Shown here in pieces: positions 6,544-41,236 of a DNA stretch of 64,000 nt (position 1 is the stretch's first letter; each line of letters begins with the position of its first letter). The stretch is from an uncultured Verrucomicrobiae bacterium (lineage in GTDB: Bacteria; Verrucomicrobiota; Verrucomicrobiia; Chthoniobacterales; JAFAMB01): the NCBI GenBank assembly GCA_963762565.1, contig CAVXLD010000010.1, forward strand, positions 288,001 through 352,000. The letters are read 5' to 3'. A model generated the notes under the pieces. That model saw only the letters and a list, made by a program, of their open reading frames with translations, had not been told where the DNA came from and made no database searches. Position numbers and translations under genes: made by a program.

Positions 6544-6577
6544 CGGCTAATCGAAGAGATGATATTGGCCGGATTAG

Positions 6578-6833
6578 CCGCGAAGCGGCTACAGAGAATA
6601 GCCCAGGTCTTTAGGCCTGGGTATGGTCCGGGCAGGACCTCGGCCCGAAGGGGCGACCGAGGTTTAAACGCGGCAATGGTCGAAAAAGCGTTCTTCATTT
6701 CTGAGCACGTAATCTCAACACACCGTTCACTCGAAAAACACCGCTTACATTCGGCCGCCCTTTCAGGGCGAATGGTCACGGGCCTCGAACCCAGGCCTAA
6801 AGGCCTGGGCTACAATGTGTAACCGCTTCGCGG
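6578..6833. repeat. Family F compound palindromic element inside the sugar ABC operon
   Basis: Arms CCGCGAAGCGGCTACA..TAGCCCAGGTCTTTAGGCCTGGGT / ACCCAGGCCTAAAGGCCTGGGCTA..TGTAACCGCTTCGCGG plus GCCCGAAGGGGC/GCCCTTTCAGGGC sub-hairpins. Confidence 0.8.
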
Positions 6834-9485: not shown

Positions 9486-9740
9486 CCCACTTCGCCAAGG
9501 CGGATCCAATCCGGACAGGACGCAGCACTCCAATGCTCCGACACTCCCCGCCCGCAACGCTTCGCGTAGCGATGCGGGCGGGCACCACTCAGCGCAGCCC
9601 GAATCGAGGACAGCCTGTCCGACGAAGCCCAAGCTCTATGTTGCCGACCGCTCAAGTCGGCCTCGCAAGCGAGGCACGCTCCACAACCGGCACACTGGCG
9701 AAGTCGGAAGGACGACGACGAGCACGCGTACGAAGCCCCT
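9486..9740. repeat. Composite repeat locus: 8-mer array plus CGTC arm carrying nested insertions
   Basis: Colinear with 36922-37046 but with extra segments 9547-9582 and 9614-9708 (the latter itself interrupted at ~9631-9694). Confidence 0.75.
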
Positions 9741-23645: not shown

Positions 23646-23987
23646 GGAGTTCAAGGAGTTCAAGGAGTTCAAGAACAGGTAGGGCGAGGCTCCGGAATCG
23701 GGGGTCGCCACCCGTGGAGCGCTGCCTCGCTTGCGAGGCCGATGGTGAGCAAGGGGAAATGTGACTCAGGCTAAAAAATGTGGCTGCGCTCTGTATGCTG
23801 GCGTGATTTCGGTGTTTGGTTTCTCTAGGTCCCTAAGCGGCGAAAATTGCACACGCTCAATAGCGCTGGCAGCCGACAAGCCTGCGACATCTGTGCCCCT
23901 GCTCACCATCGGCCTCGCAAGCGAGGCAGCGCTCCCCGGGTGGCGACCCCTATCCCAGGAGCCTCGCCGTACCGGTCCTTGAACTCC
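23646..23987. repeat. Three-layer nested palindrome: 9-mer GGAGTTCAA arms > family B (23679-23972) > GGAG-CGCTGCCTCGC doublet (23716-23935)
   Basis: 36-bp perfect IR 23716-23751/23900-23935 inside GTAGGGCGAGGCTCC/GGAGCCTCGCCGTAC inside GGAGTTCAA/TTGAACTCC. Confidence 0.85.
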
Positions 23988-29519: not shown

Positions 29520-30450
29520 GTTGAGCTATAGAAGTACCCGGTCGCTTCGAAACTTCAAATGCCACAACACGCTTAACGTTCGGCGTTTGGCGTTTGGCGC
29601 TCGGCGTTCGGCGTTTGGCGTTCGGCTTTCTGCACTTCGTTCAGGTCCTCCAGATGAACGCGGGCCCATCGCCGGGGAGGGATCGCTGCCTGTCCGACAT
29701 AGCCTTCTCTTCCTGGTTTCTTTTCTCCCGGCTTTGGCGACGTCGGATCCTCGCGATCCGTGGTTCGCGGAGCTGAGGGTCCTTTTAAGCCAGGGATTAA
29801 ATTACGCGCAAAAGCTGACAACGTCTTCCCGGCGCGCGGGGACGGGCGCCCTCCCCGATTGTTCCGCGCTTATCCACTTCGCCCGCTTCTTACTCTTCGC
29901 TTGTCTCTGCCTGTCCCTATCCGGAATCGCACGCGCTGAACCCGTCATCATCCTGGACCCCTATTTCTATCGAACGCCTGTATCCGAACCCATCGATGGG
30001 TCCAGCAAGACGGTACTAGCTTACTACGATGAAACCGGCGGGAGAGTGACATCACTCCCGAACCCTCCTCGCCAGCCCGTTTCTGAGCTCCACACCTTAG
30101 CGGTCGCCTATGCTCAATCGATCTTGAAACAAACGAGCCCCACGCTCATTCGCGATAAACACGGCGTCATTGCGGCCATTCGAATCGAAGGTCACGACCC
30201 CGCCTTTTCATCCATTCTTTTGACCCCAGGGTTTGCGGGGCGTTTCACGAACCTCTTAGGAAAGGATTGCTTGGTATCCGTGCCCAATCGCGAAACCGTG
30301 TATCTGTTCCCACGGCTGGGCGGTAACATGGAGCAATTCGCCATCCCGCTACGCGGGATCTACCACAATAGTGTATGGCCAGTCTCAACCGAGCTCTTCG
30401 AGTGGCGAAATGGCGCGCTTCACTCGATCAGAGACTTTGAAGCCGATTAG
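29518..30450 (+). CDS. Hypothetical exported protein; real start probably near 29870, not resolved
   Basis: Signal-peptide-like RFLLFACLCLSLSGIARA then a ~170-aa globular region; the first ~100 codons run through repeats. Confidence 0.55.
   Translation: MLSYRSTRSLRNFKCHNTLNVRRLAFGARRSAFGVRLSALRSGPPDERGPIAGEGSLPVRHSLLFLVSFLPALATSDPRDPWFAELRVLLSQGLNYAQKLTTSSRRAGTGALPDCSALIHFARFLLFACLCLSLSGIARAEPVIILDPYFYRTPVSEPIDGSSKTVLAYYDETGGRVTSLPNPPRQPVSELHTLAVAYAQSILKQTSPTLIRDKHGVIAAIRIEGHDPAFSSILLTPGFAGRFTNLLGKDCLVSVPNRETVYLFPRLGGNMEQFAIPLRGIYHNSVWPVSTELFEWRNGALHSIRDFEAD
29577..29626 (+). repeat. Heptamer tandem array (GGCGTTY) x ~7
   Basis: CGTTCGGCGTTTGGCGTTTGGCGCTCGGCGTTCGGCGTTTGGCGTTCGGC. Confidence 0.85.
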
Positions 30451-36824: not shown

Positions 36825-37046
36825 GGAATAGCCGCGAAACCTGTCGCGCCGTAGGCCTGGCGAAGGCGGAAGAGCGCAAAGAACGCAAAAGTAGACAAAA
36901 CAAGAAGCCCTGAAAATCACTCCAACTGCGCGGACACGAGATGCAAATTCGGACTAGCGCAGCACTCCAGTACTCCAATACTCCATCACTCCGCGCGGCC
37001 GGATTCGAGGACGAGGACGACGACGAGGACGAGAACGAAGCCTCCT
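36825..37046. repeat. 9-mer array interrupted by a 32-bp micro-hairpin, then 8-mer array and CGTC arm
   Basis: GGAATAGCCGCGAA[36839-36870]AGAGCGCAAAGAACGCAAA; (ACTCCA)n 8-mer array; CGAGGACGAGGACGACGACGAG. Confidence 0.8.
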
Positions 37047-39427: not shown

Positions 39428-39519
39428 GCCCGTGCCGCACGAGGCGCTTCGTACTCGTCCTCGCAATTGAACATGGCCCAGCGCCGGGAGGGATCGCGTC
39501 CTTGCGATCCGCGGTTCCT

Positions 39520-40302: not shown

Positions 40303-40626
40303 CGTCTTCCCTCAATCATCGCCATGATTGGCAACGAATAGAACCGTGCTGTAACCAAATCTGATTTTCAAGCGGTAGAGATGAGCTCCCGACTACGCCA
40401 AGCCTACGTCGCGGCCAAGCTCTGCCATTTTGAACGCCTTACGACAAGGGCGCGCCATAGCGAAGCGACGGCGGCCTGCTAATCTCCCAGTTTCGCTCCA
40501 TGCCGTCCCAGAAATGAAACGACGATTGGCCTGCAACTGCCTGTCGTGAACAGCGTCCCTTCCGATCAAGCTAGCTCTTTTGCCGGATCACATCGCCAGC
40601 GACCGTTCATCCTGCATGAGAACAGC

Positions 40627-40643
40627 TTGGCACCGCCAGTGCT
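40627..40643 (+). promoter_or_regulatory. Candidate sigma54 promoter
   Basis: TTGGCAC-N5-GTGCT with exact GG-N10-GC spacing, 58 bp upstream of ATG 40702. Confidence 0.55.
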
Positions 40644-40701
40644 TAATGGGTGACTCGAGAGGCAAATCCCTCTCACCACTAATCAGAAAATCCCATACAA
40701 C

Positions 40702-40941
40702 ATGAAAAAGCTCCTCTTAACAATAACCATGGCCGTCAGCGGCCTTGGTGGTTTGGCAACTTCCGCGCAAGCGCACCCGGGTTATCACTGTGGATACCAC
40801 TACGGTTGCGGATACCGCTACGGATGCGGATACCACTACTGCTACCATGGCGGTAACTGCGGCTATTGGTATTGGAACAACGGTTGCCGTTATTTCCGCG
40901 TAGTCGTTGTACCGCCTCCTCCGGCCCCTTGGTGCCCCTAA
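40702..40941 (+). CDS. Small secreted Cys/Tyr/Gly/His-rich peptide (79 aa)
   Basis: Signal peptide MKKLLL..SAQA; (CGYxYG) repeats from 18-bp tandem DNA units. Confidence 0.75.
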   Translation: MKKLLLTITMAVSGLGGLATSAQAHPGYHCGYHYGCGYRYGCGYHYCYHGGNCGYWYWNNGCRYFRVVVVPPPPAPWCP

Positions 40942-41055
40942 GGAGTTAACCGCTAACAGTTAGCCTTTGCGGTTAATCCCATGTCGATGGAGGCCCCCAT
41001 CGACCACGGAGTTGACCGTTTGCAGTATTTAAGATTAACCGCACTAAGACAGGTA

Positions 41056-41230
41056 TTTCTTTGCGCTCTTTGCGTTCTTTCGCGGCTATTCCTCTTCCAA
41101 TCGCGAGCGACATACGAGCATAGAACGCTATGAGCAATTGGGCGTGCGTAAGGATGTTCCCTTGCTTACCACGGCCTCGCTACCTGTCGCGCCGTAGGCT
41201 GGGCGAAGGCGGAAGCGAGGCGCGCTCCAC
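41056..41230. repeat. Intact 9-mer arm (41056-41091) and GGAG-type REP split by the 32-bp micro-hairpin (41182-41213)
   Basis: TTTGCGCTCTTTGCGTTCTTTCGCGGCTATTCC; GGCCTCGCT[insert]AGCGAGGCGCGCTCCAC. Confidence 0.78.
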
Positions 41231-41236
41231 GGGTCG

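What the first reader, a model, noticed from the sequence alone, without database searches (positions are those of the whole stretch)
36839..36870. A ~32-bp CCTG-tagged micro-hairpin that inserts into unrelated host repeats without clear target duplication
Seen: ACCTGTCGCGCCGTAGGCCTGGCGAAGGCGGA interrupts a 9-mer arm here; the empty form is at 41056-41091 (reverse strand). A 30/32-identical copy at 41182-41213 sits in the loop of a GGCCTCGC/GCGAGGC REP (empty forms ~9659 and ~23911). Variants CCTGTCCGAC..GTCGGA interrupt a CGTC arm (9614-9708; empty ~37006) and a GGGATCGC..TCCTYGCGATCCG motif (29689-29747; empty ~39490). A reverse-strand relative without the tag lies at 40389-40413. The stem covaries (CGCC/GGCG versus CGAC/GTCG), so the fold is conserved. 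Inference: a very small mobile unit (tetramer tag plus imperfect hairpin, as in HUH-transposase substrates) that targets other repeats.
Basis: partly seen in the sequence, partly recalled or inferred. Interest (0 to 1): 0.8.

Follow-up and report, generated by a model that had tools for sequence, protein, structure and literature searches.

The report
Tiny hairpin repeat nested in repeats
A 32-base hairpin-forming DNA block has been dropped, as one clean piece, into at least ten unrelated repeat families of a soil Verrucomicrobiota genome, so it looks like one of the smallest mobile DNA units known in bacteria, although the enzyme that moves it was not found.

Summary
The 32-nt unit R-CCTG-Y-CGCG[C/A]C-GTAGGCTTGGCGAA-G[G/T]CGG-R is present at 36839-36870 and 41182-41213, with a tag-less relative at 40389-40413(-). 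The genome holds about 160-175 copies, and none are expected by chance. A blind mutual-information scan picked out exactly the two variable stem pairs, which change as Watson-Crick pairs.

Copies lie in ten recognisable host repeats and in 35 other contexts. Removing exactly 32 nt restores sequences that occur elsewhere as empty hosts, with at most a 1-nt redundancy and no target duplication. Longer relatives of about 59 and 95 nt share the same two ends around variable cargo.

The unit is concentrated in one Chthoniobacterales family: 15 of 36 genomes, against 2 of 300 elsewhere in the phylum.

The link to an HUH transposase is not supported. No Y1 gene is flanked by the unit, there is no fixed target word, and there is no strand bias. 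Stem subtypes follow the host, so most copies probably spread together with their hosts after rare insertions.

My verdict is a REP-like micro-element, a new variant of a known kind. Earlier work in this scan had already described the nested-repeat architecture of this genome on other DNA.

The parts
36839..36870 (+). S unit (32 nt): R + CCTG tail, 6-bp stem with bulged G, 14-nt loop starting GTAG. It is inserted in a B-type host.
   Evidence: Deleting it restores a B-type empty sequence.
36827..36838 (+). Left arm of the B host (AATAGCCGCGAA).
   Evidence: 75 exact AATAGCCGC[AG]AA sites occur in the genome.
36871..36891 (+). Right arm of the B host (AGAGCGCAA AGAACGCAA AAG, a 9-mer array).
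41056..41091 (-). Empty B host (AATAGCCGCGAA directly followed by AGAACGCAAAGAGCGCAAAG).
41182..41213 (+). S unit, second copy (30 of 32 identical), in the loop of a REP-C hairpin.
   Evidence: With phase-30 deletion it restores GGCCTCGC+AAGCGAGGC, which has 25 exact paralogues.
41173..41232 (+). REP-C host around the second copy: GGCCTCGC (41173-41180), AGCGAGGC (41214-41221) and the tail GCGCTCCACGG.
   Evidence: 424 empty GGCCTCGCRAGCGAGGC occur in the genome.
40388..40420 (-). Core-like unit without the CCTG tail (A-T stem subtype); right half of an F-type inverted doublet.
40448..40476 (-). Left half of the F doublet (…CGCTTCGCTATGGCGCGCCC), a diverged inverted copy of the core.
9614..9708 (+). 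L form (95 nt): the same two ends (CCTGTCCGACGAAGCC … TGGCGAAGTCGGA) enclosing a REP-C, inside GAGGACAG^AGGACGACG.
   Evidence: 51 copies of 94-98 nt.
29689..29747 (+). M form (59 nt): the same ends around a variable 28-nt interior, in the loop of the GGGATCGC/GCGATCC hairpin.
   Evidence: about 102 copies of 55-63 nt.
39490..39511 (+). Empty GGGATCGCG-TCCT-TGCGATCC hairpin (host of the M form).
23911..23927 (+). Empty REP-C.
37001..37045 (+). Uninterrupted GAGGACG-type array (G host).

Best explanation
The 32-nt block is the minimal member of a family-specific superfamily of REP-like, non-coding hairpin micro-elements. It has an unpaired 5' tail (R-CCTG), a 6-bp stem with a bulged G whose pairs are kept by compensatory change, and a conserved 14-nt loop that begins with GTAG. 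Shown: it has entered many unrelated sequences as one clean 32-nt piece without target duplication. These sequences include the loop of a REP hairpin, the end of a MITE-like repeat, several tandem 9-mer arrays and unique DNA. Longer relatives keep the same left and right ends around variable cargo, so the 32-mer is essentially the two ends abutted. Its own loop in turn receives other small modules. Inferred: rare insertions are catalysed in trans by a sequence- and structure-specific enzyme that recognises the tail, stem and loop. A Y1/HUH protein of the RAYT kind is the obvious but unproven candidate. After each founding insertion, most further copies arise when the host repeat carrying it is itself amplified or converted.
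For: Copy number and specificity: nhmmer gives 159 hits at E<=1e-3 and 175 at E<=0.01. A covariance model built mostly from other genomes finds 149. Chance controls give 0. Structure kept by compensation. Discrete insertion: deleting exactly 32 nt gives an exact 22-mer empty paralogue for 34 of 159 copies, and 31- or 33-nt deletions give fewer (best cells 28 and 20 sites against at most 10). Hosts: ten signatures (26, 17, 15, 14, 12, 11, 11, 10, 4 and 4 copies) plus 35 other contexts. Empty hosts far outnumber filled ones: 424 REP-C and 438 D ends. Independent events within one host: five different left junctions in REP-C (a, ta, ac, aa, gaa), and only the last of five near-identical tandem REP-C units at C1:532770-532990 is filled. 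Independence from host D: G002 has 291 D ends but only 2 cores. Shared ends with variable cargo: S 122, M about 102, L 51, and 3 triple-nested copies. Lineage-specific bursts: 91, 61, 41, 4, 2 and 1 copies in six species of one genus.
Against: No enzyme was linked to the unit: 0 of 9 own Y1 genes are flanked by it, and 2 of 41 Y1 loci have a single copy nearby. Y1 genes occur in 38 of 40 family genomes, whether or not those genomes carry the core. There is no fixed target word and no strand bias. No clean 32-nt presence/absence was seen at an orthologous site. At the gnd locus the host and the core are shared by G000 and G004 and both are missing in three other species. At two further loci the whole spacer is replaced. 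Public contigs break at the repeats. Units in one host are more alike than units in different hosts (3.37 against 5.53 differences; 0 of 300 permutations), and stem subtypes are host-specific, which fits few insertions followed by host-driven spread. Folding energy is no better than for shuffled sequence.
Confidence: 0.6

Rival explanations
1. The unit is a passive module and is not itself mobile. The core fused with each host only a few times long ago, and all present copies come from amplification, recombination or gene conversion of the host repeats that carry it.
For: Stem subtypes are host-specific and units within a host are more alike. The M and L forms occur in one host each. The host-plus-core at the gnd locus is older than the split of two species at about 84% identity.
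Against: There are ten hosts plus 35 other contexts. Five junction variants occur in REP-C, and one filled unit stands among five tandem twins. G002 is rich in host D but nearly free of the core. Even this view needs at least ten clean 32-nt insertions.
Confidence: 0.2
2. The insertions arise without an enzyme, by copying errors. Hairpins stall replication, the nascent strand switches to another hairpin repeat as template, copies it and returns, which pastes one module into the loop or edge of another.
For: Several insertion sites are hairpin loops: REP-C, the GGGATCGC hairpin, the K stem and the core's own loop. The base before the unit equals its last base in 99 of 159 copies, a possible 1-nt microhomology.
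Against: The same two ends are found to the base in unrelated, non-hairpin hosts such as the 9-mer arrays. One nucleotide of homology is too little to guide a switch. The asymmetric conserved tail and loop argue for recognition by a protein.
Confidence: 0.1
3. The unit is a selected cis-acting site. The hairpin would be a binding site or an RNA stability or processing element, recruited repeatedly because it is useful.
For: The loop sequence and stem pairing are conserved across genera. Copies are enriched between convergent genes (42) over divergent genes (19). In five paralogous 3.7-kb units at C10:96-115 kb, an outer stem covaries around the core.
Against: There is no orientation bias relative to flanking genes (35 against 32). 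G-T mispairs are no commoner than C-A mispairs (6 against 6), so there is no sign of RNA wobble tolerance. Copy number ranges from 1 to 91 within one genus. Most copies sit inside other selfish-looking repeats. There is no Rfam match.
Confidence: 0.1

Closest known systems
REP / REPIN elements mobilised by RAYT (TnpA-REP) transposases (Nunvar 2010 PMC2817692, search listing and abstract only; Bertels & Rainey 2011 PMC3116915, passages read; Di Nocera 2013 PMC3733652, abstract, section 7 and passages read)
   Same: Both are short, high-copy, mostly extragenic hairpins with an unpaired tetranucleotide at one foot. Stem sub-families differ by complementary changes. Both are enriched downstream of genes, and copy number is lineage-specific. 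This genome has bona fide RAYT genes with their own REPINs.
   Different: The tail here is CCTG (C-Y-N-G), not GTAG or CGTC, and GTAG sits inside the loop. Units are mostly singletons, not doublets. No RAYT gene is flanked by them.
CGTC-tagged REPs, and GTAG-23 units of T. roseum inserted in small palindromes (Di Nocera 2013, PMC3733652, section 7 and discussion read)
   Same: The paper reports CGTC REPs that lack a dedicated flanking transposase. It also reports REP units inserted within small palindromes of which hundreds of empty copies exist. Both match what is seen here for REP-C and the GGGATCGC hairpin.
   Different: The tag, stem length (6 bp against 8-9) and loop (14 nt against 4-5) all differ. 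Here one unit enters at least ten different hosts and is itself a host.
Small dispersed repeats (SDR) of heterocyst-forming cyanobacteria (Elhai et al. 2008, Genome Res 18:1484; not held; cited as ref 43 of PMC3116915; content recalled)
   Same: As I recall, these are 21-27-nt hairpin-forming repeats found nested in other repeats, in tandem heptamer arrays and in each other, without target duplication and with no known enzyme.
   Different: The phylum and the sequence differ. I could not re-read the paper, so the comparison rests on recall.
IS200/IS605-derived miniature elements (general knowledge of the family)
   Same: There is no target duplication, the unit is a hairpin with an adjacent short word, and the ends are asymmetric.
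   Different: Those elements insert 3' of one fixed tetra- or pentanucleotide, carry separate left and right hairpins, and show lagging-strand bias. None of these features is seen here.

Membership tests
REP/REPIN-RAYT | 20-40-nt, high-copy, mostly extragenic palindromic unit | tested here: met
   32 nt; 159-175 copies. 128 of 175 lie outside any crude ORF of 110 aa or more; the other 47 overlap crude ORFs that were not checked one by one.
REP/REPIN-RAYT | Unpaired terminal GTAG (or CGTC) tag at the hairpin foot | tested here: not met
   The unpaired tail is R-CCTG, varying as C-Y-N-G. GTAG forms the first four bases of the loop.
REP/REPIN-RAYT | Units arranged mainly as inverted doublets (REPINs, HH/TT dimers) | tested here: not met
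   Among 175 hits, 15 neighbouring pairs within 4 kb are inverted, and 7 of those lie within 800 bp. Only the F and J contexts (15 copies) are doublets, each with a diverged partner.
REP/REPIN-RAYT | A cognate RAYT gene flanked by the same repeat | tested here: not met
   0 of 5 own RAYT genes; they carry GTCCCnnnGGGAC/CCAGGCA-type or other repeats instead. 2 of 41 Y1 loci (12 own, 29 from relatives) hold one copy within 1.5 kb.
IS200/IS605-type miniature element | Insertion 3' of one fixed short target word | tested here: not met
   Left flanks differ..TAGA..AAAA..CGCA..GAGG..CAAG..GACG..CGTA..CAGA.
IS200/IS605-type miniature element | No target-site duplication | tested here: met
   Deleting 32 nt restores the empty host. 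There is at most a 1-nt redundancy, seen in 99 of 159 copies.
IS200/IS605-type miniature element | Orientation bias with respect to replication | tested here: not met
   55/42 against 41/37 by local GC skew, Fisher p = 0.65. Contigs are unordered, so the skew sign is only a proxy.
MITE | Terminal inverted repeats of 15-30 bp plus a target duplication | tested here: not met
   Only the 6-bp stem is inverted, and there is no duplication.
Cyanobacterial SDR | Very small (under 30 nt) hairpin repeat nested in other repeats without duplication (recalled definition) | tested here: inconclusive
   The behaviour matches. The paper could not be read, so no feature-by-feature or sequence comparison was made.
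Any curated RNA family (Rfam 15) | Match to a covariance model | tested here: not met
   The window at gathering threshold gives only Acido-Lenti-1, elsewhere in the window. Five core-bearing loci at E<=1 give only a sub-threshold chance miRNA hit.

The most novel reading that the evidence does not exclude
The CCTG-tailed hairpins form a third tag class of REP-like elements. Their mobile unit is a single 32-nt hairpin, not a doublet, and an as yet unidentified enzyme pastes it, without duplication, preferentially into single-stranded loops and edges of other hairpin repeats. That would make it about the smallest bacterial transposable unit, and would show a hairpin-into-hairpin mode of transposition that builds the layered intergenic palindromes of these soil Verrucomicrobiota.
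Probability: 0.25. Interest if true: 0.8.

Novelty: new variant of a known kind. Interest (0 to 1): 0.5.

Why it matters
If single 32-nt hairpins can move on their own, the accepted minimum for a bacterial mobile unit (the REP doublet) is too large. The enzyme responsible must then read a tail, a bulged stem and a loop, and not long inverted ends. This genome offers an unusually clean substrate for testing that. It has one short defined unit, hundreds of empty and filled target hairpins in one cell, graded relatives that carry cargo between the same ends, and sister species with 1 to 91 copies. The unit also explains part of how the layered intergenic palindromes of these abundant soil bacteria are built.

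Tried and rejected
1. Transposase association. I examined Pfam Y1_Tnp loci in the own genome and in 40 family genomes. None is flanked by the unit. In G020 a 48-nt relative lies 18 nt from a RAYT's own REP, but on one side only.

2. GxxExxY (PF13366) and four-helix-bundle (PF05635) genes. Only 1 of about 12 GxxExxY loci is bracketed by copies (C11:64714-65516), and those copies sit inside another repeat.

3. Autonomous element. I paired orphan left and right ends 0.2-6 kb apart and found no convincing gene-carrying element.

4. Orthologous empty sites. The gnd spacer, the spacer after window 40941 and two spacers on C12 show whole-spacer turnover and no clean 32-nt indel.

5. Public reads. Four soil runs were laid, but Logan contigs end at the repeats. 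One roughly 97% identical strain lacks window 41033-41204, and the junction letters were not shown.

6. Thermodynamics. The isolated 32-mer folds no better than shuffles, and its minimum-energy fold is an alternative that the A-T stem subtype cannot form.

7. Inner GTAG + GCCTT/AAGGC hairpin. I rejected this because the G[G/T] covariation breaks it.

8. Phylum-wide conservation. I first inferred this from record titles. I rejected it after 2 of 300 other genomes matched, with one copy each.

9. Elhai 2008 could not be fetched. A search for Chthoniobacter + REP + RAYT found no paper on these repeats.

Full report
WHAT IS THERE

The window is G000:C10:288001-352000 of a 6.12-Mb, 54% G+C genome in 15 contigs. 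Record titles of related hits place it in soil Verrucomicrobiota, order Chthoniobacterales.

At 36839-36870 the sequence ACCTGTCGCGCCGTAGGCCTGGCGAAGGCGGA lies between AATAGCCGCGAA and AGAGCGCAAAGAACGCAAAAG. The same host without the 32 nt lies at 41056-41091 on the reverse strand.

A copy identical at 30 of 32 bases, at 41182-41213, sits between GGCCTCGC-t and AGCGAGGC. The uninterrupted hairpin GGCCTCGCAAGCGAGGC stands at 9657-9673 and 23911-23927.

- the long variants at 9614-9708 and 29689-29747;
- the empty GGGATCGCG/TGCGATCC hairpin at 39490-39511;
- the reverse-strand relative at 40389-40413.

HOW MANY, AND IS IT CHANCE

The exact 32-mer is unique. With up to 2, 4 and 6 substitutions it has 31, 71 and 113 matches.
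- A profile of the unit finds 159 hits at E<=1e-3 and 175 at E<=0.01, out of 242 reported at E<=10.
- A covariance model built from 82 copies of other genomes plus 3 window copies finds 149 at E<=0.01. Only 150 of 4474 first-look candidates were scored.
- A degenerate 25-nt pattern gives 3 window matches against 0.00 expected.
- The 28-nt pattern gives 91 matches in the genome. The pattern read backwards gives 0 in all 61 genomes searched.

ANATOMY

The consensus is R-CCTG-Y-C-G-C-G-M-C-GTAGGCTTGGCGAA-G-K-C-G-G-R.

I computed mutual information between all column pairs of 159 ungapped copies with 6-nt flanks. Apart from flank-flank pairs, which reflect host families, the two top pairs were M with K and Y with the final R.
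- M with K: CG 121, AT 32, other 6.
- Y with R: TA 83, CG 61, TG 6, CA 6, other 3.

These are the two variable pairs of a 6-bp stem, Y-C-(G bulge)-C-G-M-C pairing with G-K-C-G-G-R, around a 14-nt loop.

On 77 distinct copies, mostly from other genomes, the search pattern left M and K free. There, M-K is AU 39, CG 38 and never unpaired. Y-R is CG 49, UA 17, UG 5, other 6. No shuffle of 500 reaches the covariation score (0.283 against 0.107), and slid registers give at most 0.063. The other four pairs were fixed by the pattern and say nothing.

The fold is not unusually stable: z is -0.16 and -0.08 as DNA. The minimum-energy fold is an alternative that the A-T subtype cannot form. The evidence for structure is therefore the covariation, not the energy. 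G-T mispairs are no commoner than C-A mispairs (6 against 6), which gives no hint of selection at the RNA level.

IT IS A DISCRETE INSERT

The flanks of the 159 copies fall into ten recognisable hosts:
- A, arrays of TAGGTCCCA-type 9-mers: 26 copies;
- C, the REP-C hairpin loop: 17;
- B, AATAGCCGC + GCGCAAA 9-mers: 15;
- E, GGAGTTCAA arrays: 14;
- D, the end GGTGGGGCGAGG^CTCCCGAA of a MITE-like repeat: 12;
- H: 11;
- F doublets: 11;
- G, GAGGACG arrays: 10;
- I: 4;
- J: 4;
- 35 copies fit none of these.

To place the ends objectively, I deleted every combination of left and right cut from each copy and asked whether the joined 11+11 nt occur elsewhere in the genome. The 32-nt diagonal dominates, with 28, 20, 13 and 7 sites in its four phases. 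The best 31- or 33-nt cells have at most 10.
- 34 of 159 copies have an exact empty paralogue after a 32-nt deletion.
- The phase is ambiguous by 1-3 nt, because the base before the unit equals its last base in 99 of 159 copies.
- So there is no target duplication beyond a possible single base.

Empty hosts are far commoner than filled ones: 424 REP-C and 438 D ends.

Within REP-C the left junction comes in five forms: a, ta, ac, aa and gaa. In a run of five near-identical tandem REP-C units after C1:532770, only the last is filled. Both observations point to several separate events in one host family.

RELATIVES WITH CARGO, AND NESTING BOTH WAYS

I searched for the left end (C-Y-N-G-Y-C-(G)-C-G-M-C-R-W-A-G) followed within 200 nt by the right end (GCG-N-M-G-K-CGG-R). 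This gave four size classes:
- 122 units of 29-32 nt;
- about 102 of 55-63 nt, always in the loop of a GGGATCGC/GCGATCC or GGGCGCGC/GCGCGCC hairpin;
- 51 of 94-98 nt, always in GAGGACAG^AGGACGACG and each containing a REP-C;
- 3 of 125-126 nt, in which that REP-C in turn carries a 30-nt S-like unit in its loop.

So the core sits in REP-C loops, and REP-C sits in core-like loops.

The core loop also receives a 24-nt module (…TTCGGCGAGCTCAGTCGAG…). That module occurs 18 times in the genome, in several contexts. The 32-mer is best seen as the two conserved ends abutted.

Two contexts, F and J, are inverted doublets whose left half is a diverged inverted copy of the core. J also carries pieces (CTACTATC, GTCCCTACGGGAC) of the REPIN that flanks a true RAYT gene at C7:408772.

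DISTRIBUTION

The 28-nt pattern occurs in 15 of 36 other genomes of the same family (5 of 11 genera). It occurs in 0 of 24 genomes from 15 other families of the order.

An even sample of 300 further genomes of the phylum (85% complete or more, none from this family) gave 2 genomes with one copy each.

Nearly all came from Chthoniobacterales-type MAGs. Single hits came from MAGs labelled Opitutaceae, Akkermansiaceae, Kiritimatiellae, Lentisphaerae, Ignavibacteriaceae and Acidobacteriota. I cannot tell whether those reflect transfer, ancient descent or mis-binning.

Within the genus the counts are 91, 61, 41, 4, 2 and 1.
- REP-C counts rise and fall with the core: 424 here, then 188, 181, 22, 22 and 4.
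- D ends do not: G002 has 291 D ends and 2 cores.

WHAT MOVES IT

This is the weak point.
- The genome has five RAYT-type genes of about 150 aa, each flanked by its own inverted repeats, and four 350-aa Y1-plus-HTH genes. None is flanked by the core. One has a REP-C array with a single filled unit 930 bp downstream.
- Of 41 Y1 loci (12 own, 29 from relatives), 2 hold one copy within 1.5 kb.
- Y1 genes are present in 38 of 40 family genomes, irrespective of the core.
- Left flanks share no fixed word.
- Orientation is unbiased with respect to neighbouring genes: 35 co-oriented against 32 anti-oriented. Convergent spacers (42) exceed divergent ones (19).
- Orientation is also unbiased with respect to local GC skew (p = 0.65).
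- Copies are mostly singletons.

These results argue against an IS200/IS605-like mechanism, and they fail three of four REP/RAYT membership features.

The one shared feature is the heptamer CCGTAGG. It occurs both in the core (stem end plus loop start) and in the GTCCCGTAGGGAC hairpins that flank true RAYTs here. This is a lead only.

HOW MUCH IS INSERTION AND HOW MUCH IS HITCH-HIKING

Units in one host differ at 3.37 positions on average, and units in different hosts at 5.53 (0 of 300 label permutations reach this difference). Stem subtypes are nearly host-specific:
- T-A/C-G in hosts A, B, C and I;
- C-G/C-G in D and G;
- C-G/A-T in E and F;
- T-G/A-T in J.

So most copies probably arose by amplification or conversion of a filled host. 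The minimum number of true insertions is of the order of the number of contexts: ten hosts plus up to 35 others.

ORTHOLOGOUS EVIDENCE IS THIN

- Downstream of gnd, G005 has an 18-nt spacer, G003 a short one, and G002 a fragment of another element.
- G004 has the same B host with a core that carries the extra 24-nt module in its loop. That insertion therefore predates the split of two species at about 84% identity.
- Other spacers are wholly replaced between species.
- Public soil contigs stop at the repeats.

COMPARISON WITH WHAT IS KNOWN

The element behaves like a REP. It also behaves, as I recall them, like the small dispersed repeats of cyanobacteria (Elhai 2008, not readable here).

Di Nocera et al. 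(PMC3733652, section 7 and discussion read) already report two relevant things. REP units are inserted in small palindromes that also exist empty in hundreds of copies. A whole REP super-family (CGTC) has no flanking transposase. Both are close precedents.

What differs here:
- the tail (CCTG);
- GTAG inside the loop;
- the singleton habit;
- the breadth of hosts;
- the two-way nesting;
- the graded series of cargo-bearing relatives.

No Rfam family matches. A search for Chthoniobacter + REP + RAYT found no paper on these repeats.

Earlier agents of this scan described the general nested-palindrome architecture of this same genome on other windows. The present unit is a newly resolved, very small component of it.

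VERDICT

The unit is real, has defined ends, is structurally constrained and has been inserted into many hosts. It is best classed as a new variant of REP-like micro-elements. Interest is moderate.

Noticed in passing
window 6576-6621 (-): Match to Acido-Lenti-1 RNA (RF01687) at 37.6 bits, just over the gathering score of 37. It is the only Rfam family found in the window.
   Followed up: no
window 40560-40941 (+): A small secreted Cys/Gly/Tyr/His-rich ORF (40702-40941) and about 140 nt of leader upstream are conserved in four sister species, while the surrounding spacers are replaced. There is no Rfam hit, so this could be an unrecognised leader or riboswitch.
   Followed up: partly
window 41033-41204: A soil strain about 97% identical (run X5, one contig) joins 41032 directly to 41205. 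It therefore lacks the empty B host, the spacer, and the left part of the REP-C plus core.
   Followed up: partly
genome-wide; e.g. G000:C7:97176, C10:21044, C12:347796; G004 orthologue of window 36839 (L020:2920-3325): A second micro-module of about 24 nt (GGAC-TTCGGCGAGCTCAGTCGAG-YCGC) occurs in 18 copies. It is found inside core loops, exactly at the junction between L elements and their host, and inside RAYT-type REPINs.
   Followed up: partly
G000:C5:14863, C5:10268, C14:157114: Triple nesting: a 30-nt S-like unit lies in the loop of a REP-C, which lies inside an L element, which lies inside a GAGGAC array.
   Followed up: no
G000:C10:96000-115000: Five paralogous units of about 3.7 kb each end in a hairpin whose outer stem (TTTTCAGCAG/CGCTGAAA and variants) covaries around an embedded core.
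   Followed up: no
G000:C10:82900-83040 (L133:900-1040), L041, L119: Downstream of an RRM/RGG RNA-binding protein gene, three species keep a core-like hairpin at the same place. One species has a plain loop. Two have a 16-nt TCCCA..GGGAC hairpin in place of the loop centre.
   Followed up: partly
genome-wide and G001-G005: The 16-nt end GGTRGGGCGAGGCTCC occurs 438 times here and 291 times in G002, mostly as inverted pairs 200-300 bp apart. REP-C counts vary from 4 to 424 among six species of the genus.
   Followed up: partly
G000:C11:64500-65700: A GxxExxY (PDDEXK_3) gene is bracketed by long inverted copies of a repeat, and each copy carries a core.
   Followed up: partly
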